A DNA stretch of 64,000 bases from a virus: IMG/VR virus record IMGVR_UViG_3300032307_000516, positions 1 to 64,000 of that record; one strand, given 5' to 3'. Every line of letters begins with the position of its first letter. Within the stretch, counting starts at the first letter, position 1. Below the pieces are notes generated by a model that saw only the letters and a list, made by a program, of their open reading frames with translations, searched no databases and had not been told where the DNA came from. Below, one piece after another: positions 5,208 to 15,851 of the stretch. The position numbers and the translations under genes are program-made.

Positions 5208-5246
5208 TATATTTGCAGATAAATAATAAAAACACGTTCTTTAACA
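5208..5246 (+). promoter_or_regulatory. Bacteroidota-type -7 promoter element plus boxA-like antitermination site
   Basis: TATATTTG at 5208-5215; CGTTCTTTAACA at 5235-5246. Confidence 0.65.
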
Positions 5247-5483
5247 TACTTATTTTCTTGAAGCGGTTTAGAAGGTTACTTCACAACATGATAAACGCAG
5301 AAGGATTAGTTCTCCGGTTCTAATCTACACAGGTCTCAGTACTGCTATAGGTGAGGCGCTTCTATATTCTAAAGGATATAGGAGAAAAATCAGTAGCTCG
5401 GTTTAATTCACCTGACTAGAAATTCGGGAATGATTACCTCCCATAAGGAGGAACCACCTTTTAAAGATTTCTCAAGAAAGTAT
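5246..5483 (+). ncRNA. Y-RNA-like element 1 (long form)
   Basis: TTTCTTGA-AGCGG-TTTAGAAGGT-TACTTC ... ACCTTTTAAA-GATTTC-TCAAGAAAG. Terminal and inner stems pair; lies upstream of the TROVE gene. Confidence 0.7.
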
Positions 5484-5720: not shown

Positions 5721-7367
5721 ATGTCAAGACTAGGCGAATTTGCTGACAAAAAAACAGCAATGCAAATTTTACAAAACTCCACTTACGGAGCACTAGGAGT
5801 AGAGAACTTCATGGGAGGGATATCTTACAGCTTATCACCTCTAAACACATTAAAGATTGTTGCTGCTTCTTCAATCTTTGGAGAACCACAATATTATAGA
5901 GATGGATTAGGTGCTCCTAGTAACCTTAGCACTATCTTGGACTATTCTATATTAGCTCCGATGTTCAAAGCAGAATCTGGAGCTTTAAAAGATAATCTGA
6001 GTGCTGTAGATATCTTCGAAGAAGCCATACAGGCAGCTTTAGACTTCGACTTTAAAGCAACATTGGATTTAGCTTTAGAACTCCGTAACGAGTACTATAT
6101 GCGTCTAAATCCAGCTGTAATATTTGTTAAAGCAAGTATGCACGAAGGTCGTCAGGAGTTCAACGAGAAAAATCCTGGGTACATGAAGATGATAGGTAAA
6201 GCTATTGCTCTTAGACCTGATGATTTAACAAATCAGTTCGAATACTATATGTATAAGAACGGAGGTAAAAAAGGTCTTTCATCTTTGGTGAAAAGAACTT
6301 GGGCAGAAAGACTTGCAGAATTCTCGCGTTACCAATTGAACAAATACAAGGGTAAAAGATTAATCGACCTTGTTCGTATCTCTCACGCTAAAAGTGAAGA
6401 TATTAATGAGCTAATGACAACTGGTACATTAAAAGTAGAAGAGTCAGAAAAAACATGGGAGATCTTAAGATCAGAAAAAAAATCATGGGAAGAGATTGTA
6501 AACACTATCTCAATCCCACATATGGCTCTTTTGAGAAACCTTAGAGGTATTTTTACTGAAGTCGAAGATCCTACACTTACTGCAAGAATTTTAACTCAGT
6601 TAAAAGGCGGTGTTATAAAAGGAAAACAATTCCCTTTTAGATATTGGTCAGCTTATAAAGCTGTATCCAATTCACAGATCCACCACAAACAACTTGTTTT
6701 GGATACTCTTGAAGAATGTTTAGACATCTCTGTAGAGAATATGCCTAAATTAAAAGGTAAAACGGTTTGTCTTTCTGATAACTCAGGATCTGCATGGGGT
6801 GCTTTCAATAGCGAATATGGATCAGTTACTGTAGCAGAGATTGCTAACTTGTCTTCATTAATTACATCACTACAATCTGATTCAGGAGAAGTTGGTGTAT
6901 TTGGGGATGATCTTTCATTGAAAGGAGTATCTAAAAGAAATGGCCTTCTTACACAATTAGAAGAAACTTCTAAAAGAGGTAGAGCTCAAGGAGGTGGTAC
7001 AGAAAATGGAATTTGGGTATTCTTTGATGAAGCCATCAAAAATAAAGTCCATTACGACAACATCTTTATCTATTCAGATATGCAAGCAGGTCACGGTAAT
7101 CTTTATGGACACGGACACACAGTAGGTAAAACTAAATTTGTCCACCCAAGAAAAGGCGGAACATACGTAGACGTACTTGCTATGGCTCAGGAATACAGAG
7201 ATAAAGTTAATCCTAAGGTTAATTTATTTACAGTTCAAGTAGGAGGTTACAACAACAGTGTTCTTCCTGAGGCTCTTTACAGAGGAGCAATATTAGCTGG
7301 TTGGACTGGTAAAGAACCTGTATTTGCTAAAGCAATTATAGACATTTGGGATTCAGTAGAAGCCTAA
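5721..7367 (+). CDS. rsr: TROVE-domain Ro60-like RNA-binding protein with C-terminal vWA domain
   Basis: Motifs ALLRNLR, QFPFRYWSAY, MIDAS-like DNSGS and IFIYSDMQ; 548 aa. Confidence 0.92.
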   Translation: MSRLGEFADKKTAMQILQNSTYGALGVENFMGGISYSLSPLNTLKIVAASSIFGEPQYYRDGLGAPSNLSTILDYSILAPMFKAESGALKDNLSAVDIFEEAIQAALDFDFKATLDLALELRNEYYMRLNPAVIFVKASMHEGRQEFNEKNPGYMKMIGKAIALRPDDLTNQFEYYMYKNGGKKGLSSLVKRTWAERLAEFSRYQLNKYKGKRLIDLVRISHAKSEDINELMTTGTLKVEESEKTWEILRSEKKSWEEIVNTISIPHMALLRNLRGIFTEVEDPTLTARILTQLKGGVIKGKQFPFRYWSAYKAVSNSQIHHKQLVLDTLEECLDISVENMPKLKGKTVCLSDNSGSAWGAFNSEYGSVTVAEIANLSSLITSLQSDSGEVGVFGDDLSLKGVSKRNGLLTQLEETSKRGRAQGGGTENGIWVFFDEAIKNKVHYDNIFIYSDMQAGHGNLYGHGHTVGKTKFVHPRKGGTYVDVLAMAQEYRDKVNPKVNLFTVQVGGYNNSVLPEALYRGAILAGWTGKEPVFAKAIIDIWDSVEA

Positions 7368-8594: not shown

Positions 8595-8654
8595 ATGAAA
8601 ACAATACTTAACATATTACCTTCAATATTAAGACCGTCGATAAGACGATCCTAA
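8595..8654 (+). CDS. Attenuator leader peptide 1 (MKTILNILPSILRPSIRRS)
   Basis: Rich in ATA, TTA, AGA, CCN and TCN codons; the stop codon overlaps the antiterminator strand. Confidence 0.8.
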   Translation: MKTILNILPSILRPSIRRS

Positions 8655-8732
8655 AGGTCCTGTGTTAATAAAAAATAATCATTAACTAAACCGGGACCTT
8701 TAAAAGTCTCGGTTTTTTTATGTTCTTTGACA
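8652..8732 (+). promoter_or_regulatory. Attenuator 1: antiterminator/terminator switch plus boxA
   Basis: TAAAGGTCCTG (8652-62) pairs with CGGGACCTTTA (8692-8702), competing with terminator AAACCGGGAC/GTCTCGGTTT plus T-run; TGTTCTTTGACA at 8721. Confidence 0.8.
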
Positions 8733-8749
8733 TGTTGGATTATCAAATT

Positions 8750-8836
8750 GGAGAGGTGGCAGAGCCTGGTTTATTGCACCGGTCTTGAAAACCGACGTAG
8801 TGAAAGCTACCGGGGGTTCGAATCCCTCCCTCTCCG
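8750..8836 (+). tRNA. tRNA-Ser(TGA)
   Basis: Cloverleaf, loop CTTGAAA, long variable arm. Confidence 0.95.
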
Positions 8837-8841
8837 CATTT

Positions 8842-8915
8842 GGTCCGCTAGCTCAGCTGGATAGAGCAACTGCCTTCTAAGCAGTAGGTCTCAGGTTCGA
8901 ATCCTGAGCGGATCA
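8842..8915 (+). tRNA. tRNA-Arg(TCT)
   Basis: Cloverleaf, loop CTTCTAA. Confidence 0.95.
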
Positions 8916-9082
8916 CACAAATCCCTCTGCCTAGCGCTGGGTATGGATCGAAGATAGAATATGCCTCTACACCGTAGACAGGTAGGATACCTCGGTATTC
9001 TTTAATGATATGCACACTTATTCTCCAAATCGTTGGTTGGCACAGTTTGTATGTTCTGGTGATACTTAAAGACATACAATTT

Positions 9083-9155
9083 CGGGATGTAGATCAGTTG
9101 GTAGATCGCCTGGTTTGGGACCAGGAGGCCCCAGGTTCGAGTCCTGGTATCCCGA
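9083..9155 (+). tRNA. tRNA-Pro(TGG)
   Basis: Cloverleaf, loop TTTGGGA, C1:G72. Confidence 0.95.
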
Positions 9156-9158
9156 CTA

Positions 9159-9221
9159 CGGAGGCTGTAAAGTCAAACAGTGAAGAATTTAAAGGATGAC
9201 ATCTTTAAATCCCTCCGACCA
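9159..9221 (+). ncRNA. CCA-ended tRNA-like mini-RNA with Pro-like acceptor end
   Basis: CGGAGG/CCTCCG-A-CCA closing two hairpins. Confidence 0.5.
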
Positions 9222-9222
9222 T

Positions 9223-9296
9223 AGAGGCGTAGCTCAATTGGTTAGAGCACATGCCTTATACGCATGCGGTCACGAGTTCGACTCTCGTCGTCTCTA
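9223..9296 (+). tRNA. tRNA-Ile(TAT)
   Basis: Cloverleaf, CATGC-CTTATAC-GCATG. Confidence 0.9.
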
Positions 9297-9300
9297 CTTA

Positions 9301-9374
9301 GGTCCCTTAGCTCAGTAGGTTAGAGCAACTGACTCATAATCAGTAGGTCCACGGTTCGAGCCCGTGAGGGACCA
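9301..9374 (+). tRNA. tRNA(CAT), probably Ile2 (lysidine type)
   Basis: Cloverleaf, loop CTCATAA, ileX-like acceptor GGTCCCT. Initiator and elongator Met tRNAs are found elsewhere in the window. Confidence 0.8.
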
Positions 9375-9465
9375 CAAAGATACGGATGAGATTTCTAAAT
9401 CTCCTACTTACTTATGAAAAGAAGGATTCCGTAACTAATACCATATAGTAGTGATGGTATTGTCT

Positions 9466-9548
9466 GCCCGGATGTTGAAATAGGTAGACAAGACGGACTT
9501 AAAATCCGTTGGCCATTGGTCGTGAGGGTTCAAGTCCCTCTCCGGGTA
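9466..9548 (+). tRNA. tRNA-Leu(TAA)
   Basis: Cloverleaf, loop CTTAAAA, variable arm. Confidence 0.95.
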
Positions 9549-9553
9549 CAAAT

Positions 9554-9660
9554 ATAATAGTGGCAGAGAGGCTTAATGCTGAGCATACATAGAGTCTGGG
9601 AATGTGGTATGTATGATACCTATACACGGGGACTCGCAGGTTCGAATCCTGTCTATTATA
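9554..9660 (+). ncRNA. Non-canonical tRNA-like RNA with expanded anticodon arm
   Basis: Acceptor ATAATAG/CTATTAT, D-arm, T-arm GCAGG-TTCGAAT-CCTGT; an 8-bp CATACATA/TATGTATG arm with 16-nt loop. Confidence 0.6.
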
Positions 9661-9663
9661 TAT

Positions 9664-9768
9664 ATAGGAGTGGCGGAAGCGTGATCTTTGCAAAGGTCCG
9701 ATAGATAGACGACAGGGTGTCATACCCGAGAATGAAAGTTCATATTGGTGCAAGTCCAATCTCCTGTA
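9664..9768 (+). ncRNA. Non-canonical tRNA-like RNA with D-loop insertion
   Basis: Acceptor ATAGGAG/CTCCTGT, T-arm ATTGG-TGCAAGT-CCAAT, GAAA-capped variable arm, extra hairpin in the D-loop. Confidence 0.55.
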
Positions 9769-9792
9769 CTTTTTTGATATATATAAAGAATC

Positions 9793-10164
9793 ATGAGTGA
9801 ACATATTAAGATATCAGGAATGGGTATAGAAATATACAAAAATGATATACCAGGTGTAAGATGGAATAAAGCTCAGTCTTTTGCTCAGATTCTTGGAGAT
9901 GGATGGAGATTACCAACTTTAGAAGAACTTGCTTTAATAAGATCAATAAGAAATATAGGTGATATAGGAAGATTTCCTGTAGAATATTCGGATTTTTCCG
10001 ATTCATATTACTGGAGTAACGAAGAACGCGAATTTACTACTAAAAAAATGATGGGAAGTAGTCTTAAAAGTACCTATGCTTACTTTTTTGATATGGCTGA
10101 AGGAACTTCTTCACACAATAAAAAGTCATACGAGCTTAGGGCTAGATTTGTTAGAGATATATAA
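9793..10164 (+). CDS. DUF1566/Lcl C-terminal-like domain protein
   Basis: GWRLPTLEEL and YYWS motifs. Confidence 0.75.
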   Translation: MSEHIKISGMGIEIYKNDIPGVRWNKAQSFAQILGDGWRLPTLEELALIRSIRNIGDIGRFPVEYSDFSDSYYWSNEEREFTTKKMMGSSLKSTYAYFFDMAEGTSSHNKKSYELRARFVRDI

Positions 10165-10167
10165 ATC

Positions 10168-10944
10168 ATGCCAACAACAAGAGCATTTGCATATAATCCA
10201 GCACAAGCAACAATTTCTGGAACTACAAATATAGGTACATTATGTGTAGGTGTATCTGCTTTAAATTACGGAGGAAATCCTGGTGGATTAACTTGGTGGA
10301 TGGGTCCGGACGAGGATAATTCTTATGTTATAGCTAAGGATGTGCCAACAGCAGACTTCCCTACTCCAGTAGGTAATGTTGGTAATGTACAATTTTGGAG
10401 ATGTTCTAACAACAGCTCAGAATTCACTAATCTTGTTACATTAATAAGTGGTACTACACAAGCATCTGCTTCTGCTGCTCAATCGTGGCTATCAACAAAT
10501 AATTATTGGACTAATTACACTAGCGGAGTAACTTTCTCACAACCTTTTGTAAATGGTACTGCACCAACAAATGCAGTAGAAACTGCTTGGAATACATTTA
10601 GAGCATCTTTAACAGGTTCTTATACACAATTTGTTGTATCTAATTCATTAGGGTTTAGTTTAACAGTAAGTCATGCTACTTCAGTACAGACTTTGGCAAA
10701 TGCACTAAGAAATGCAACAAATAATACCTCGGTAACTATAAACAGCGTAGTTTGGAGAGTAGGAACAGGATGTGGAACTCCTAAAATAGGTGGGGTTGCT
10801 GTTGAATTTTCCAACGTAGCAAGCTGTAGTTCATCAAGTACTATAGCATTTAGACCTATGATTAATAACTTAAACTGGGGAGGTATGGGTACAGGATCTA
10901 CTGTAGGACAGGCTTCACAAACAATGACACTAACATTTAGCTAA
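10168..10944 (+). CDS. Hypothetical Thr/Ser/Gly-rich virion-type protein
   Basis: 258-aa ORF with late-type motif upstream. Confidence 0.6.
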   Translation: MPTTRAFAYNPAQATISGTTNIGTLCVGVSALNYGGNPGGLTWWMGPDEDNSYVIAKDVPTADFPTPVGNVGNVQFWRCSNNSSEFTNLVTLISGTTQASASAAQSWLSTNNYWTNYTSGVTFSQPFVNGTAPTNAVETAWNTFRASLTGSYTQFVVSNSLGFSLTVSHATSVQTLANALRNATNNTSVTINSVVWRVGTGCGTPKIGGVAVEFSNVASCSSSSTIAFRPMINNLNWGGMGTGSTVGQASQTMTLTFS

Positions 10945-11096
10945 TGGAAACTTATAGAATAATAGACTTAAGAGTAACCCCAAATGAAATAGTACCAGGT
11001 AAGGAATCTGTTACTTTAGAAGAGGGACAATTATGGATAGACGAGAACGGAGGAGATTGTCCATTGTGCGACTATACGCTATTAATCAATGAATAA
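10944..11096 (+). CDS. Small hypothetical protein (50 aa; not in ORF track)
   Basis: TAATG overlap with the upstream gene; METYRIIDLRV...CPLCDYTLLINE. Confidence 0.5.
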   Translation: METYRIIDLRVTPNEIVPGKESVTLEEGQLWIDENGGDCPLCDYTLLINE

Positions 11097-11202
11097 ATGT
11101 AGATTTTTTAAAATAATTTGAAAAAAATACAAAAAACATTTTTTTAAACGGGAACTTTTCCGTACTTTTGGAGTATATAATAAAAAAGGAACAAAACTTT
11201 CA

Positions 11203-11292
11203 ATGAAACACTTTTTAAATATCGAAATGGATCTTCAGCTTCTAAAAGGAGACGAACGTCTTGAGGATACAAATAAGTGTCAGAGGAAATAA
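11203..11292 (+). CDS. Attenuator leader peptide 2 (MKHFLNIEMDLQLLKGDERLEDTNKCQRK)
   Basis: Core enriched in GAR, GAY and CTN codons; the 3' end carries the antiterminator strand. Confidence 0.75.
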   Translation: MKHFLNIEMDLQLLKGDERLEDTNKCQRK

Positions 11293-11362
11293 ATTTATAT
11301 AAAGATATAATTTAAACCTCTGATAACCTCAGAGGTTTTTTTGTTTTATACGCTCTTTGAAA
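11278..11362 (+). promoter_or_regulatory. Attenuator 2: antiterminator/terminator switch plus boxA
   Basis: TGTCAGAGG (11278-86) pairs with CCTCTGATA (11317-25), competing with AAACCTCTGA/TCAGAGGTTT plus T-run; CGCTCTTTGAAA at 11351. Confidence 0.78.
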
Positions 11363-11366
11363 TTAT

Positions 11367-11441
11367 GGTCCCTTCGTCTATCGGTTAGGACGTTAGGTTT
11401 TCATCCTAGAAAGAGGGGTTCGATTCCCCTAGGGACTACCA
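11367..11441 (+). tRNA. tRNA-Glu(TTC)
   Basis: Cloverleaf, loop TTTTCAT, encoded CCA. Confidence 0.92.
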
Positions 11442-11446
11442 GAAAA

Positions 11447-11520
11447 GGTCCTACAGTCCAGTTGGAGTGGACGCCGCCCTGTCACGGCGGAGATCGCGGG
11501 TTCGAGTCCCGCTAGGACCG
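11447..11520 (+). tRNA. tRNA-Asp(GTC)
   Basis: Cloverleaf, loop CTGTCAC, G73. Confidence 0.95.
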
Positions 11521-11618
11521 CTAAAACTTATGCTACATAGAGCAAAGCAGAAAGGTACGATCTGGTACACTATGAAGTACAAATAGAAAGTCAGATCATA
11601 AGTTTTAAAAAATTATAT

Positions 11619-11691
<73 letters not shown>

Positions 11692-11905
11692 CTAATAAGT
11701 TATTTGAAATATTTGCGAAAAGTTCGATGGAATCAATTATAGGTCCAGGGCACAAATCCGTGTGAGGAATCCAATTGATAGAAGAACCTTCTACTGAGTA
11801 ATGCACGTACACGTGATATCCATAGAAAAGTCCTAATAAGTTAAAGGCAAAGGAGTTGATAATACCGGTTAAAAACAACTTTATCTCTTTAGATAGCAAA
11901 TAAAT

Positions 11906-11985
11906 GCCCTCGTGGTGGAATTGGTAGACACGCTAGACTTAGGATCTAGTGCGAAAGCGTGAGAGTTCGAGTCTCTCCGAGGGTA
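11906..11985 (+). tRNA. tRNA-Leu(TAG)
   Basis: Cloverleaf, loop CTTAGGA, variable arm. Confidence 0.95.
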
Positions 11986-11987
11986 CT

Positions 11988-12485
11988 ATGAAAGTTATAT
12001 TTTTAGATTTTGATGGTGTTCTTAATCTTATACCTCAAGGACATGACTATTACGGAGGGATTTTTCACCCTGAATTTGTCGGCAACCTAGGTAGGATTAT
12101 AGAGGAAACTGGAGCAAAACTTGTGATAAGCTCTTCGTGGAGAACTATGGGATTGGAAAGACTTAGAATGATGTGGGAACATCGTTTATATCCAGGAGAC
12201 ATCATAGGAGTTACCCCAGATCTTAGATGGAGGACAAAAAAAGATGCTATGGAATTAAACGAAGTCGAGTACGTTAGAGGAGATGAAATAGAGTCATGGC
12301 TAAATCTACATCCGGAGGTAACTAATTATGTTATACTTGACGATGATGATGATATGTTACAATCACAAAGAATAAACTTTGTAAGAACATCTGATAATAT
12401 TAATCATCCTGATTGCATTGATATAGGATACGGATTAACTAATATTTGTTCTAACGATGCAATTAGAATTTTAAACAGAAAATAA
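11988..12485 (+). CDS. HAD phosphatase, Swiss-army-knife RNA-repair type (HAD_SAK_2-like)
   Basis: IFLDFDGV, ISSSWR, RGDEI and ILDD motifs; ATG at 11988 lies just after the tRNA. Confidence 0.85.
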   Translation: MKVIFLDFDGVLNLIPQGHDYYGGIFHPEFVGNLGRIIEETGAKLVISSSWRTMGLERLRMMWEHRLYPGDIIGVTPDLRWRTKKDAMELNEVEYVRGDEIESWLNLHPEVTNYVILDDDDDMLQSQRINFVRTSDNINHPDCIDIGYGLTNICSNDAIRILNRK

Positions 12486-13054
12486 TGAAAGTTATATTTT
12501 TAGATCATGATGGAGTAATTTGTCTTTCCCAGCAATTTGGTGGGCGTTACAAAAAGCAGACTAAAGCTAGAACTAAGCTTTCTCAAAACGTGATGGATTT
12601 TCCAGTCGATGCTAGATTTGATAACTTCGATAAGAAAGCTATTAAAGTTCTAAACCTAATCTTAGAAGATACTGGAGCTGAAATAGTTGTTTCTTCTGAT
12701 TGGAAGAACTGGGCAAATGTTGAAGAAATGGGCGAATATTACGAACAACAAGGTATAATTAAAAAGCCTATTGATTTTACACCTAGAGAATACACAATGC
12801 CAGAGAAACAAGAATGGCATCCAGACTGGGATTTAGAAGCATCAAGAACTTTAGAAATCCAAGAATGGCTAAAAGATCATCCAGAGGTTACTCATTGGGT
12901 AGCAATAGATGATTTAGATATGAGCTTTAAAGAGGTATCAAATAATAGAAGCGGTACTGGCTGGGGCTTAAAAAACTTTGTACACACCCCAAGTATCACT
13001 GAAGGGATTAAAAAAATGGGTATAAAAGAAAAAGTTTTAAAATTTTTAAAATAA
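12485..13054 (+). CDS. HAD phosphatase, HAD_SAK_2-like paralog
   Basis: IFLDHDGV, VSSDWK, RTLEI and AIDD motifs. Confidence 0.85.
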   Translation: MKVIFLDHDGVICLSQQFGGRYKKQTKARTKLSQNVMDFPVDARFDNFDKKAIKVLNLILEDTGAEIVVSSDWKNWANVEEMGEYYEQQGIIKKPIDFTPREYTMPEKQEWHPDWDLEASRTLEIQEWLKDHPEVTHWVAIDDLDMSFKEVSNNRSGTGWGLKNFVHTPSITEGIKKMGIKEKVLKFLK

Positions 13055-13137
13055 TTTCAAAAAACATTTTTTTATTTAAAAAATATATTGTACTTTTACG
13101 AAACTATTCTGGAAACAGGATATATAATTAAGAAAAA

Positions 13138-13245
13138 ATGAAAAACTGTAGTAAACATAACATCAATCGCATGAACAGTCAAATTAATGGCTGCTATCAA
13201 ACGGTGGCGTTTTGGGCTAAGGGGAAAGAACCCGATCGAAGCTAA
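13138..13245 (+). CDS. Attenuator leader peptide 3 (MKNCSKHNINRMNSQINGCYQTVAFWAKGKEPDRS)
   Basis: Codons 2-30 encode exactly the 16 amino-acid types served by tRNA operon 3. Confidence 0.85.
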   Translation: MKNCSKHNINRMNSQINGCYQTVAFWAKGKEPDRS

Positions 13246-13319
13246 TACAGAAAATCATAATTAGATATTTTGGAAAAGGCTTCGATTTAATCGAAGCCTT
13301 TTTTATTTGTTCTTTGACA
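13234..13319 (+). promoter_or_regulatory. Attenuator 3: antiterminator/terminator switch plus boxA
   Basis: GATCGAAGC (13234-42) pairs with GCTTCGATT (13279-87), competing with AAAAGGCTTCGA/TCGAAGCCTTTT; TGTTCTTTGACA at 13308. Confidence 0.82.
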
Positions 13320-13332
13320 TACTGGAAAAAAT

Positions 13333-13405
13333 GGTACCGTAGCTCAGTTGGTAGAGCACTAGACTGAAAATCTAGGTGTCGCCGGTTCGATTCCGGCCGG
13401 TACCA
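13333..13405 (+). tRNA. tRNA-Phe(GAA)
   Basis: Cloverleaf, loop CTGAAAA. Confidence 0.95.
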
Positions 13406-13925: not shown

Positions 13926-14011
13926 GGAAAGTAATCTCAGATGGTGACGGGGCTCGCCTGCTAAGCGAAGCGTACCTTAATTGGTATTTGGTTCGATTCC
14001 AATTCTTTCCG
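13926..14011 (+). tRNA. tRNA-Ser(GCT), somewhat divergent
   Basis: Loop CTGCTAA, variable arm, G73; mismatches at stem ends. Confidence 0.8.
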
Positions 14012-14017
14012 CAACAT

Positions 14018-14433: not shown

Positions 14434-14586
14434 GATTAGAAGCGGTAGATTTGGTTACTTCGCACTTTTAATGCCCGTGTCGGGGGTTCGAATCCCTCAT
14501 CTAGCTCCATAGCAGATCCTAGGATTTGTGCTAGATTAGCTCAGCGGTAGAGCAGGTTCCAAACCAAATCTAAATATTCTCTAATC
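14434..14586 (+). ncRNA. Y-RNA-like element 4 containing a circularly permuted tRNA-Lys(TTT)
   Basis: GATTAGA-AGCGG-TAGATTTGGT-TACTTC [tRNA 3' half, CCA, linker, tRNA 5' half] ACCAAATCTA-AATATTC-TCTAATC. Confidence 0.8.
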
Positions 14587-14592
14587 CTAATA

Positions 14593-14680
14593 TTGATTAG
14601 AAGCGGTGAAAGGGGTTACTTCTCAAAACCTTGTAAATTTTTGACCAAAAAACCACCCCGATTAAATATTCTCTAATCAA
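14593..14680 (+). ncRNA. Y-RNA-like element 5 (short form)
   Basis: TTGATTAGA-AGCGG...GGGGT-TACTTC...ACCCC...AATATTC-TCTAATCAA. Confidence 0.7.
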
Positions 14681-15765: not shown

Positions 15766-15851
15766 AATAAATTAAAAAATATTTGGTACTTACAAATGGT
15801 AACACCTTATATTTATATATAGTTAAAAAGAAATAGTTCTTTAAAAATATT

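What the first reader, a model, noticed from the sequence alone, without database searches (positions are those of the whole stretch)
11203..11362. Attenuator 2 senses Glu/Asp/Leu(CTN)/Met
Codons 8-22 are GAA ATG GAT CTT cag CTT CTA aaa gga GAC GAA cgt CTT GAG GAT. Eleven of 15 match the amino acids of the operon Glu(TTC), Asp(GTC), fMet(CAT), Leu(TAG). Codons 26-28 (TGTCAGAGG) copy the terminator's 3' strand and can sequester its 5' strand. The internal ATG would be read by elongator Met. Loss of initiator tRNA would instead be sensed as failure to initiate, which also leaves the antiterminator free (inference).
Basis: partly seen in the sequence, partly recalled or inferred. Interest (0 to 1): 0.8.

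Follow-up and report, generated by a model that had tools for sequence, protein, structure and literature searches.

The report
Leader-peptide switch before phage tRNA genes
A short translated mini-gene and two competing RNA hairpins sit just before this phage's Glu-Asp-fMet-Leu tRNA genes, and they probably let transcription into those genes only when ribosomes move slowly; no such control of tRNA genes turned up in print.

Summary
A 29-codon ORF (11203-11292) ends 3 nt after a 7-nt copy (11280-11286) of the 3' arm of a strong intrinsic terminator (11314-11338). tRNA-Glu starts 28 nt after that terminator.

In 13 distinct relatives:
- The frame stays open, and all 6 indels inside it are multiples of 3.
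- Codon positions 1, 2 and 3 vary equally, so the frame is kept but the peptide is not.
- Terminator and antiterminator both stay paired. One base of the shared arm changed together with both of its alternative partners.
- The two states are nearly equal in energy in four of the seven variants folded.

I read this as a ribosome-dependent transcription attenuator gating tRNA-Glu, Asp, fMet and Leu(TAG), and probably two HAD_SAK_2 genes behind them.

The codon claim is weaker:
- Glu/Asp/Leu(CTN) codons are 10 of 28 against a 16% background (P 0.01). Under strict wobble the count is 7 of 28 (P 0.09).
- Relatives range from 19 to 41%.
- The invariant Leu-Glu-Asp core overlaps a conserved helix, so codon choice and RNA structure are confounded.
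- The internal ATG occurs in 1 of 13 variants, so Met sensing is not supported.
- Sensing of the initiator tRNA is untested.

This scan has noted the same kind of leader on other phage DNA. Three literature searches, plus a term search inside the 2021 Anabaena tRNA-array paper, found no published account. Nothing here is experimental.

The parts
11163..11181 (+). Promoter or gene-start elements: TACTTTTG (11163-11170, fits TAnnTTTG) and GTATATAAT (11173-11181).
   Evidence: Sequence. The region is conserved in relatives. GTATATAAT is one letter away from GRTATATAW, which occurs 14 times in the window against 5.3 expected and lies 3-12 nt before gene starts, including leaders 1 and 3. The TAnnTTTG consensus for Bacteroidota promoters is recalled, not tested.
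11203..11292 (+). Leader ORF of 29 codons plus TAA, MKHFLNIEMDLQLLKGDERLEDTNKCQRK.
   Evidence: The frame is open in 13 of 13 distinct variants, while frames 2 and 3 carry 1-4 stops each. All 6 gap runs inside the ORF are multiples of 3. Variable columns by codon position are 21, 21 and 22 of 28.
11208..11280 (+). Stem A, a long-range helix enclosing codons 3-26 (11208-11213 with 11275-11280; 11220-11223 with 11266-11269). Possible pause hairpin.
   Evidence: Folds. 90% of cells are paired against 27-49% when the partners are slid, and 3 pairs changed on both sides. The pause role is inference.
11279..11286 (+). 5' arm of the antiterminator (GTCAGAGG, codons 26-28), ending 3 nt before the stop codon.
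   Evidence: (I12, D2). In L174 and L166 this arm changed in step with the terminator arm.
11290..11314 (+). A/U-rich inner hairpin of the antiterminator. It begins at the stop codon.
   Evidence: Folds. Helix 2 has 90% of cells paired and 3 pairs changed on both sides.
11314..11347 (+). Intrinsic terminator: AAACCTCTGA / loop TAACC / TCAGAGGTTT, then TTTTGTTTT. Its 5' arm (11317-11324) is shared with the antiterminator.
   Evidence: -12.7 to -13.0 kcal/mol. 98.5% of cells are paired in 13 variants, with one U-A to G-C exchange.
11353..11363 (+). boxA-like word CTCTTTGAAAT, between the terminator and tRNA-Glu.
   Evidence: The exact word YTCTTTGAMAT occurs 3 times in 64 kb, each time just behind one of the three leader terminators. 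The function is inferred from likeness to the rrn boxA, which is recalled.
11367..11986 (+). The gated tRNA genes: Glu(TTC) 11367-11441, Asp(GTC) 11447-11521, initiator Met(CAT) 11619-11692, Leu(TAG) 11906-11986.
   Evidence: The same order follows the leader in the relatives.
11988..13054 (+). Two HAD_SAK_2 genes (11988-12485 and 12485-13054). The first starts 2 nt after tRNA-Leu, so both are probably in the same transcription unit.
   Evidence: Pfam PF18143, E 6.5e-27 and 9.3e-23. Co-transcription is inferred from spacing only.

Best explanation
This is a ribosome-dependent (leader-peptide) transcription attenuator for the phage's Glu-Asp-fMet-Leu(TAG) tRNA operon.

Proposed sequence of events:
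1. Transcription starts at the gene-start motif near 11163-11181.
2. The 29-codon ORF is translated while RNA polymerase moves on.
3. If the ribosome runs to the stop codon (11290-11292), it sits on GTCAGAGG (11279-11286). The shared arm CCTCTGA (11317-11323) then pairs downstream, the terminator forms and transcription stops 20-30 nt before tRNA-Glu.
4. If the ribosome is held back at codons 8-21 or so, or never loads, GTCAGAGG pairs with CCTCTGA, the terminator cannot form, and polymerase reads through. It passes the boxA-like word into the tRNA genes and probably the two HAD_SAK_2 genes.

The most likely cue is slow decoding of the Glu, Asp and Leu(CTN) codons that make up 10 of the 28 codons. 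The operon would then be made on demand and would shut itself off.

Shown in silico: the ORF, both helices, their conservation and covariation, and the fixed linkage to these tRNAs.
Inferred: that translation sets the switch, and that the cue is codon-specific. I put the switch at about 0.55-0.6 and codon-specific Glu/Asp/Leu sensing at about 0.4.
For: 1. Layout: a gene-start motif, an ORF, a strong terminator, then 28 nt to tRNA-Glu with no promoter-like motif in between.

2. Translation of the frame. It is open in 13 of 13 distinct variants (24-31 codons; GTG start in L174). Frames 2 and 3 always carry stops. All 6 indels inside the ORF are multiples of 3, and the only 1-nt indel lies after the stop. 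There is no third-position excess (21, 21 and 22 of 28). So the frame is kept and the peptide is not.

3. Mutually exclusive helices.
- Terminator: 98.5% of cells paired.
- Antiterminator: 91.6% paired against 33-47% when slid, with 5 pairs changed on both sides; 2 of 500 shuffles reach this.
- Column 125 of the shared arm is U in the window clade and G in L174 and L166. Its terminator partner (column 135) and its antiterminator partner (column 86) both went from A to C.

4. Position of the arm. The best complement to the terminator's 5' arm lies within 12 nt of the stop codon in 11 of 13 variants, and these 11 include all three clades. In L087 and L214 a second site at codons 9-11 scores a little better.

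5. Balance of the two states. They lie within about 1 kcal/mol in the window, L084, L194 and L166. The terminator state is favoured by 3-7.5 kcal/mol in L089, L211 and L174.

6. Linkage. Of the 21 loci carrying the leader, tRNAs were called in 19. tRNA-Glu follows in all 19 and tRNA-Asp comes next in 18; L214 is cut there. The other two, L086 and L093, lie on contigs whose tRNAs were called. L062 lacks both the leader and this operon.

7. Codons.
- 10 of 28, P 0.0098.
- Off-target operon codon sets give P 0.35-0.97 for this leader.
- Leaders 1 and 3 match their own operons (P 1e-5 and 0.006) and not operon 2.
- The divergent L174 has 12 of 29 (P 0.0011).
- Leader 1 against leader 2 contrasts give Fisher P 0.0003, 0.006 and 0.03 in the three clades.
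Against: - There are no experimental data. No RNA contig of the four runs laid covered the leader.
- The codon match is the weakest of the three leaders. Strict wobble gives 7 of 28 (P 0.088). L194 has 5 of 26 and L211 has 5 of 23, which is no excess. L166 has 8 of 30 (P 0.10).
- The variants share ancestry, so their P values are not independent.
- The invariant Leu-Glu-Asp core overlaps the conserved inner helix of stem A (GAUA 11266-11269 with UAUC 11220-11223). RNA structure alone could therefore keep those codons.
- There is no run of identical regulatory codons as in the his, leu or trp leaders.
- The covariation rests on two divergent sequences (L174, L166) that probably share one event. 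In L174 the arm duplex alone is not better than shuffles (P 0.19).
- Stem A does not compete with the antiterminator. An untranslated leader would therefore read through, unlike the trp leader.
- It is unknown which RNA polymerase transcribes this region and whether it is coupled to ribosomes.
Confidence: 0.55

Rival explanations
1. The same ribosome-dependent switch, but it gauges translation in general rather than Glu, Asp or Leu decoding. The cue would be ribosome supply, initiation or any slow-down. The Glu/Asp/Leu content would be a by-product of the RNA helices and of shared ancestry.
For: - The codon excess is modest and absent in L194 and L211.
- The invariant Leu-Glu-Asp codons lie in a conserved helix.
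- There is no run of one codon.
- The untranslated leader already favours or equals the antiterminator state in 4 of 7 variants, so any failure to translate opens the gate.
Against: - Each of the three leaders matches its own operon and not the others.
- The contrast holds in the divergent L174 and L166.
- The variable middle of the leader keeps Glu, Asp and Leu at shifting positions.
- Outside codon 5, every Leu codon of the 11 window-clade variants is CTN, although TTA is the commonest Leu codon of the phage. L174 and L166 also carry TTA or TTG.
Confidence: 0.2
2. There is no switch. The ORF is an ordinary small gene or an incidental frame with its own terminator. The tRNAs are made from leaky readthrough or from an unrecognised promoter. 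The upstream copy of the terminator arm is incidental.
For: - Small ORFs followed by terminators are common in phage genomes.
- The terminator scan of the region is not enriched overall (8 found against 5.8 expected).
- There is no expression data for the leader.
Against: - The frame is kept without conserving the peptide, which does not fit a functional protein.
- The arm copy and the stop codon keep their relative position in three clades and co-vary with the terminator.
- The two states are near-equal in energy.
- The same layout recurs before three tRNA clusters, with unrelated ORFs and stems.
- The 28 nt between the terminator and tRNA-Glu hold no gene-start motif, only the word shared by all tRNA clusters.
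- The peptide has no match at E<8 in 50,697 phage records.
Confidence: 0.12
3. A factor-driven attenuator. A phage or host protein or RNA (in the manner of PyrR, TRAP or a riboswitch ligand) chooses between the two helices, and the ORF is not what is read.
For: The alternative helices by themselves fit any attenuator class. The best sub-threshold Rfam hit is the PyrR binding site (24.3 bits against a cut-off of 54, E 0.2), which is no evidence of membership.
Against: - This reading does not need a conserved open frame, in-frame-only indels or a fixed spacing between stop codon and arm, yet all three are present.
- No Rfam family reaches its threshold.
- Apart from the arms there is no conserved unpaired sequence block that could serve as a binding site.
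Confidence: 0.08

Closest known systems
Multivalent leader-peptide attenuators of enterobacterial amino-acid operons (thrL for Thr and Ile; ilvL for Ile, Val and Leu; also trpL, hisL, leuL, pheL). Recalled from textbook knowledge.
   Same: A short translated ORF at the 5' end, an intrinsic terminator before the regulated genes, and an antiterminator that shares one strand with the terminator. A ribosome at the stop codon masks the antiterminator's 5' strand. The regulatory codons are a mixture of several amino acids.
   Different: - The regulated genes are tRNAs (and perhaps RNA-repair-type phosphatases), not biosynthetic enzymes.
- The element lies in a phage with Bacteroidota-type signals.
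- There is no run of identical codons.
- The upstream helix (stem A) does not compete with the antiterminator, so 'no translation' should give readthrough.
- No sequence or structure match to the Rfam leader families: Phe_leader 21.7 bits against 55, His_leader 15.7 against 49.
pheM leader of the pheST operon (phenylalanyl-tRNA synthetase) in E. coli. Recalled.
   Same: A leader-peptide attenuator that gates a component of the translation apparatus in response to decoding of its own codons.
   Different: It controls a synthetase gene rather than tRNA genes, and it reads a single amino acid from a run of Phe codons.
The silent tRNA array (trn operon) of Anabaena PCC 7120, induced under translational stress. 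PMC8421152: search listing plus a term search of its text. PMC10272220: abstract read.
   Same: An extra set of tRNA genes that is off by default and switched on when translation is impaired.
   Different: Control there is by the RHH repressor TrcR at the promoter (abstract). The words 'attenuat', 'leader peptide' and 'terminator' occur 0 times in the 2021 paper. It is cellular, not phage.
T-box riboswitches. Recalled.
   Same: A terminator/antiterminator choice that reports on tRNA status.
   Different: A T-box binds uncharged tRNA directly and needs no ORF. No T-box match at any threshold used here. This leader is much shorter and carries a conserved frame.
The rrn-type boxA antitermination site. 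Recalled; the 12-letter rrnB word was found in PMC2176067.
   Same: The word after the terminator shares the core GCTCTTT and precedes untranslated structured RNA genes, as in rRNA operons.
   Different: It lies downstream of the leader terminator, so it cannot be what overrides that terminator. Binding of NusB/S10 is untested.

Membership tests
Ribosome-mediated (leader-peptide) transcription attenuator | A short ORF in the 5' leader, kept open in relatives | tested here: met
   ORF 11203-11292. Open in 13 of 13 distinct variants, with in-frame indels only (6 of 6); the other two frames are closed.
Ribosome-mediated (leader-peptide) transcription attenuator | An intrinsic terminator between the ORF and the regulated genes | tested here: met
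   A 10-bp stem plus a T run at 11314-11347. 98.5% of cells are paired across the variants. tRNA-Glu starts at 11367.
Ribosome-mediated (leader-peptide) transcription attenuator | An antiterminator helix that excludes the terminator by sharing a strand with it, supported by covariation | tested here: met
   11279-11286 pairs with 11317-11324. 91.6% of cells are paired and 5 pairs changed on both sides. One shared-arm base co-varies with both of its partners. The covariation comes from only two divergent sequences.
Ribosome-mediated (leader-peptide) transcription attenuator | The stop codon is placed so that a terminating ribosome masks the antiterminator strand | tested here: met
   The arm ends 3 nt before TAA in the window. 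In L174 it abuts the stop codon and in L166 it overlaps it. The ribosome footprint is taken from established knowledge and was not measured.
Ribosome-mediated (leader-peptide) transcription attenuator | Regulatory codons enriched for the amino acids tied to the regulated genes | tested here: inconclusive
   10 of 28 (P 0.0098) with four-way reading of CTN, 7 of 28 (P 0.088) under strict wobble. P<0.05 in 6 of 13 variants. The operon-2 set is the best of the four operon codon sets in 11 of 13. Confounded with stem A.
Ribosome-mediated (leader-peptide) transcription attenuator | Readthrough depends on translation of the leader and rises when the cognate charged tRNA is short | not testable with these tools
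   This needs reporter fusions, 3'-end mapping or ribosome profiling in an infected host. The RNA contigs laid gave no cover of the leader.
Rfam amino-acid leader families (Trp, His, Leu, Thr, Phe leaders) | A score at or above the family's gathering threshold | tested here: not met
   No non-tRNA family at gathering in the 64 kb. With the loose threshold, Phe_leader scores 21.7 against 55 and His_leader 15.7 against 49.
T-box riboswitch | A match to the T-box model (Stem I, specifier and T-box sequence) | tested here: not met
   Not among the matches up to E 10 in 11100-11370, nor at gathering.
rrn-type boxA antitermination site | A boxA word ahead of untranslated RNA genes, bound by NusB/S10 | tested here: inconclusive
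   The exact word YTCTTTGAMAT occurs only behind the three leader terminators. Near-copies head cluster 4 and the Y-like RNAs. Binding is not testable here.

The most novel reading that the evidence does not exclude
The phage runs a demand-driven supply of tRNAs. Each tRNA block is gated by a translated 'test strip' written in the codons that the block serves. Attenuator 2 in particular couples slow decoding of Glu, Asp and Leu codons (or failed initiation) to the making of replacement Glu, Asp, initiator and Leu tRNAs, together with two RNA-repair-type HAD phosphatases. This would work as a sense-and-resupply circuit against loss of tRNAs, for instance through host anticodon nucleases.
Probability: 0.3. 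Interest if true: 0.85.

Novelty: new variant of a known kind. Interest (0 to 1): 0.65.

Why it matters
tRNA genes are usually thought to be controlled at the promoter, by growth rate, the stringent response or repressors such as TrcR. A leader-peptide attenuator in front of tRNA genes would close a direct loop: the ribosome measures how well a codon set is decoded, and the answer sets the supply of the tRNAs for those codons.

In a phage this would explain how a large tRNA set can be carried yet made only when needed. It would also link phage tRNAs to the depletion or cleavage of host tRNAs during infection.

The element is about 190 nt long and self-contained, and it has clear mutational predictions, so the idea can be tested directly. 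It would also be a compact codon-responsive switch for engineering.

Tried and rejected
- **RNA evidence.** One search for runs found only small shares (0.14 or less). Laying X1, X2, X8 and X19 gave cover on the tRNAs, mostly from other organisms, and on 11734-11902. It gave none on 11146-11350. These are contigs, so the gap says nothing about expression of the leader.
- **Metagenome scan.** Of the 120 loci returned, 11 were real relatives by BLAST and the rest were chance matches.
- **HAD protein scan.** The closest homologues (L003-L009, 57-74% identical) have no tRNA within 4 kb, so they gave nothing on the leader.
- **Cultured relatives.** blastn of 8600-13400 against 50,697 phage records matched only tRNA genes. 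tblastn with the peptide gave nothing below E 8.
- **A promoter between terminator and tRNA.** I considered TTTG-type and sigma-70-type readings of the word after the terminator. I rejected them because the spacing to the tRNA varies (7, 16 and 22 nt), there is no matching upstream element, and the sigma-70 scan is not enriched (31 found against 31.9 expected).
- **Stem A as an anti-antiterminator, as in trp 1:2.** Rejected. It overlaps the arm by only 2 nt and coexists with the antiterminator in the minimum-energy fold.
- **The internal ATG as a Met sensor.** Rejected: 1 of 13 variants.
- **Spacer 11520-11910.** Rfam and folding gave no family and z -0.69.
- **Supplements.** Supplementary files of the papers were not opened.

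Full report
**Where it lies.** The window is the first 64 kb of a 72-kb IMG/VR virus record rated about 25% complete. It carries 26 tRNA genes in four clusters. It also carries a TROVE/Ro60 gene, two HAD_SAK_2 genes and an HNH gene. The finding sits in front of the second cluster: Glu(TTC) at 11367, Asp(GTC) at 11447, Met(CAT) at 11619 and Leu(TAG) at 11906.

**The observation.**
- The ORF is 11203-11292, 29 codons plus TAA, and codons 8-22 are as quoted.
- Eleven of those 15 match the operon's amino acids. Ten remain without the internal ATG, which an initiator cannot read. Seven remain under strict wobble, where tRNA-Leu(UAG) does not read CTT.
- The phage's own tRNA set has a single U34 tRNA for seven of the eight four-codon boxes and tRNA-Arg(ACG) for the eighth. 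This makes four-way reading the fairer assumption, but it is an assumption.
- Over the whole ORF, 10 of 28 codons are Glu/Asp/CTN against 16.2% in 48 long ORFs (P 0.0098). Strict wobble gives 7 of 28 (P 0.088).
- 2.3% of 14,957 gene windows reach 10. None of 2,157 reaches 10 within 15 codons. 2 of 201 short ORFs reach the fraction, one of them being the leader itself.
- TCAGAGG at 11280-11286 copies 11329-11335 and is complementary to 11317-11323. 6 of 500 shuffles give as strong a duplex.

**Anatomy.**
- *Upstream.* TACTTTTG lies at 11163-11170 and GTATATAAT at 11173-11181. The latter is one letter off GRTATATAW, which occurs 14 times in the window against 5.3 expected (0 of 100 shuffles reach 14). 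On the + strand that word lies 3-12 nt before gene starts, including leaders 1 and 3.
- *Downstream of the ORF.* A 10-bp terminator (11314-11338) with a T run, then CTCTTTGAAAT (11353-11363), then tRNA-Glu.
- *The word after the terminator.* The exact word YTCTTTGAMAT occurs three times in 64 kb, each time just behind the terminator that precedes tRNA clusters 1, 2 and 3. Near-copies head cluster 4, which has no leader, and the Y-RNA-like copies at 5237. It looks like an rrn-type boxA (recalled), suited to carrying polymerase through untranslated structured RNA. It lies after the leader terminator, so it is not what overrides that terminator.
- *The fold.* The minimum-energy fold of 11203-11350 does not contain the terminator. 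It contains an antiterminator: GUCAGAGG (11279-11286) with CCUCUGAU (11317-11324), stacked on an A/U hairpin that begins at the stop codon. It also contains a long-range helix (stem A) enclosing codons 3-26. The fold has z -3.0 against shuffles.
- *Forced states.* The terminator state is -32.0 kcal/mol and the antiterminator state -32.1 kcal/mol.

**Relatives.**
- *How they were found.* Protein-anchored scans, three DNA patterns in IMG/VR and one metagenome scan gave 21 loci with this leader. Together with the window they make 13 distinct sequences.
- *Ascertainment.* Two of the IMG/VR patterns did not ask for the arms and returned the same 10 loci. The invariance of the arms in that clade is therefore not an artefact of the search.
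- *Divergent members.* L174 and L166 are only 68-69% identical to the window and have a different terminator stem.
- *Linkage.* tRNAs were called in 19 of the 21 loci. tRNA-Glu follows the leader in all 19, and tRNA-Asp comes next in 18 (L214 is cut there). tRNA-Leu(TAG) lies in the cluster in 14 of the 19. Four of the other five end early and one, L174, shows none within 2.5 kb. L062 runs from cluster 1 to cluster 3 with neither this leader nor this operon.

**Is the frame read?**
- The frame is open in 13 of 13 variants, at 24-31 codons; 12 start with ATG and L174 with GTG.
- Frames 2 and 3 carry 1-4 stops in every variant.
- All six gap runs inside the ORF are 3 or 15 nt long. The only 1-nt gap lies just after the stop.
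- Variable columns are spread evenly over codon positions (21, 21 and 22 of 28).
- A frame that is kept while its peptide is free to change is what one expects of a leader peptide. It argues against a functional small protein.
- tblastn finds no relative of the peptide in cultured phages.

**Are the helices real?**

| Helix | Cells paired | When partners are slid | Pairs changed on both sides |
|---|---|---|---|
| Terminator | 98.5% | 21-60% | 1 (U-A to G-C) |
| Antiterminator | 91.6% | 33-47% | 5 (2 of 500 shuffles reach this) |
| Stem A | 90% | 27-49% | 3 |

- The most telling column is 125 of the shared arm. It is U in the window clade and G in L174 and L166. Both of its alternative partners, column 135 in the terminator and column 86 at the ORF end, went from A to C.
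- The arm keeps its place next to the stop codon in all three clades.
- Limits: the covariation comes from two sequences that probably share one event. In L174 the arm duplex alone is no better than shuffles (P 0.19).

**Mechanism.**
- With a ribosome footprint of about 12-15 nt on either side of the decoding site (established knowledge), a ribosome at the stop codon covers 11279-11286 but not 11314. The terminator then forms.
- A ribosome held at codons 8-21 leaves the arm free, the antiterminator forms first, and polymerase reads into the tRNA genes.
- The two HAD_SAK_2 genes start 2 nt after tRNA-Leu and end at leader 3's promoter, so they probably belong to the same unit.
- Stem A does not compete with the antiterminator. 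It may act as a pause hairpin that lets a ribosome catch up; this is inference.
- Because nothing blocks the antiterminator when no ribosome is present, failure to initiate would also open the gate.

**Which cue?**
- *Own operon versus the others.* This leader gives P 0.0098 for its own operon and 0.35-0.97 for the other three codon sets. Leader 1 gives 1.2e-5 and leader 3 gives 0.006 for their own sets, and both are depleted for operon 2.
- *Divergent clades.* The leader-1 homologues have 12 of 22 operon-1 codons and 2 of 22 operon-2 codons. The leader-2 homologues have 12 of 29 (L174) and 8 of 30 (L166) operon-2 codons. Fisher tests of the leader 1 against leader 2 contrast give 0.0003, 0.006 and 0.03 in the three clades.
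- *The variable middle.* Within the window clade the middle of the ORF changes freely yet keeps Glu, Asp and Leu at shifting positions. Apart from codon 5, all its Leu codons are CTN, although TTA is the commonest Leu codon of the phage.
- *Evidence against.* The excess reaches P<0.05 in only 6 of 13 variants and is absent in L194 and L211. The variants are not independent. The one invariant block, Leu-Glu-Asp (found in 3.1% of gene windows), overlaps the conserved inner helix of stem A, so structure and codon choice cannot be separated by sequence alone. The internal ATG occurs only in the window.

**What is known.**
- No Rfam family other than tRNA reaches its threshold.
- Two full-text searches for leader-peptide or attenuator control of tRNA operons or phage tRNAs listed nothing relevant among the 30 papers shown.
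- The nearest case in print that I found is the silent tRNA array of Anabaena, which is induced under translational stress. It is controlled by the repressor TrcR (abstract). The 2021 paper holds none of 'attenuat', 'leader peptide' or 'terminator'.
- Earlier notes of this scan describe the same kind of leader in this genome (leaders 1 and 3) and in several other phage genomes. These are unchecked AI notes and I do not count them as evidence.

**Verdict.** The element is a real, conserved two-state RNA switch joined to a translated frame, placed so as to gate a tRNA operon. Its kind is known (leader-peptide attenuation), but I found no published account of its target. That it reads Glu, Asp and Leu decoding specifically is plausible but is the least secure step. 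Met sensing is not supported.

Noticed in passing
window 11711-11902: The spacer between tRNA-fMet and tRNA-Leu(TAG) stands letter for letter in contigs of two RNA libraries (X1: 11734-11902; X2: 11735-11868) and with 6 differences in a third (X19). X1 also shows a joint from 11902 back to 11711 with CC in between. This may be a stable, perhaps circular or permuted, small RNA. No Rfam family matches, and the fold has z -0.69.
   Followed up: partly
window 11988-13054: Two tandem HAD_SAK_2 genes (the HAD domain of RNA-repair proteins) start 2 nt after tRNA-Leu(TAG) and end at leader 3's promoter. They probably share the attenuator-2 transcription unit. The closest homologues in other phages (L003-L009) have no tRNA within 4 kb.
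   Followed up: partly
window, 14 sites (for example 7889, 8579, 9776, 10156, 13119): GRTATATAW occurs 14 times against 5.3 expected and lies 3-12 nt before gene starts on the + strand. It is likely a phage promoter or start element. Leader 2 has a one-mismatch copy at 11173-11181.
   Followed up: partly
L085, L095, L214, L160, L116, L211 (between the boxA-like word and tRNA-Glu): These relatives carry an extra insert of about 100-130 nt with its own closing stem and T run between the leader and tRNA-Glu. It could be a further small structured RNA or a second terminator-like hairpin.
   Followed up: no
L174:2868-3015(-) and L166:1283-1436(+): The two divergent leader peptides end in Pro-Pro-Gly just before the stop codon, on top of the antiterminator arm. 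That motif is known to slow ribosomes, which would prolong masking of the arm. This is inference only.
   Followed up: no
L087 and L214, codons 9-11 of the leader: In the short variants a second stretch inside the ORF pairs with the terminator's 5' arm slightly better (-12.3 and -11.8 kcal/mol) than the arm at the ORF end.
   Followed up: no
window 8595-8651 and 11203-11223: Leaders 1 and 2 share the N-terminal pattern M-K-x-[I/F]-L-N-I, and L-N-I is kept in all leader-2 variants. This points to a common origin or a shared requirement at the start of the frame.
   Followed up: no
window 15766-15850 and 5237-5247: tRNA cluster 4 has a boxA-like word (GTTCTTTAAAAAT) but no leader ORF or terminator. 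TTCTTTAACAT also heads the Y-RNA-like copies next to the TROVE/Ro60 gene (5721-7367).
   Followed up: no
window 9550-9790, 13935-14017, 14434-14680: These are tRNA-like stretches with T-arm-like GGTTCGAATCC words that ARAGORN and Rfam do not call. Earlier notes of the scan read some of them as Y-RNA-like.
   Followed up: no
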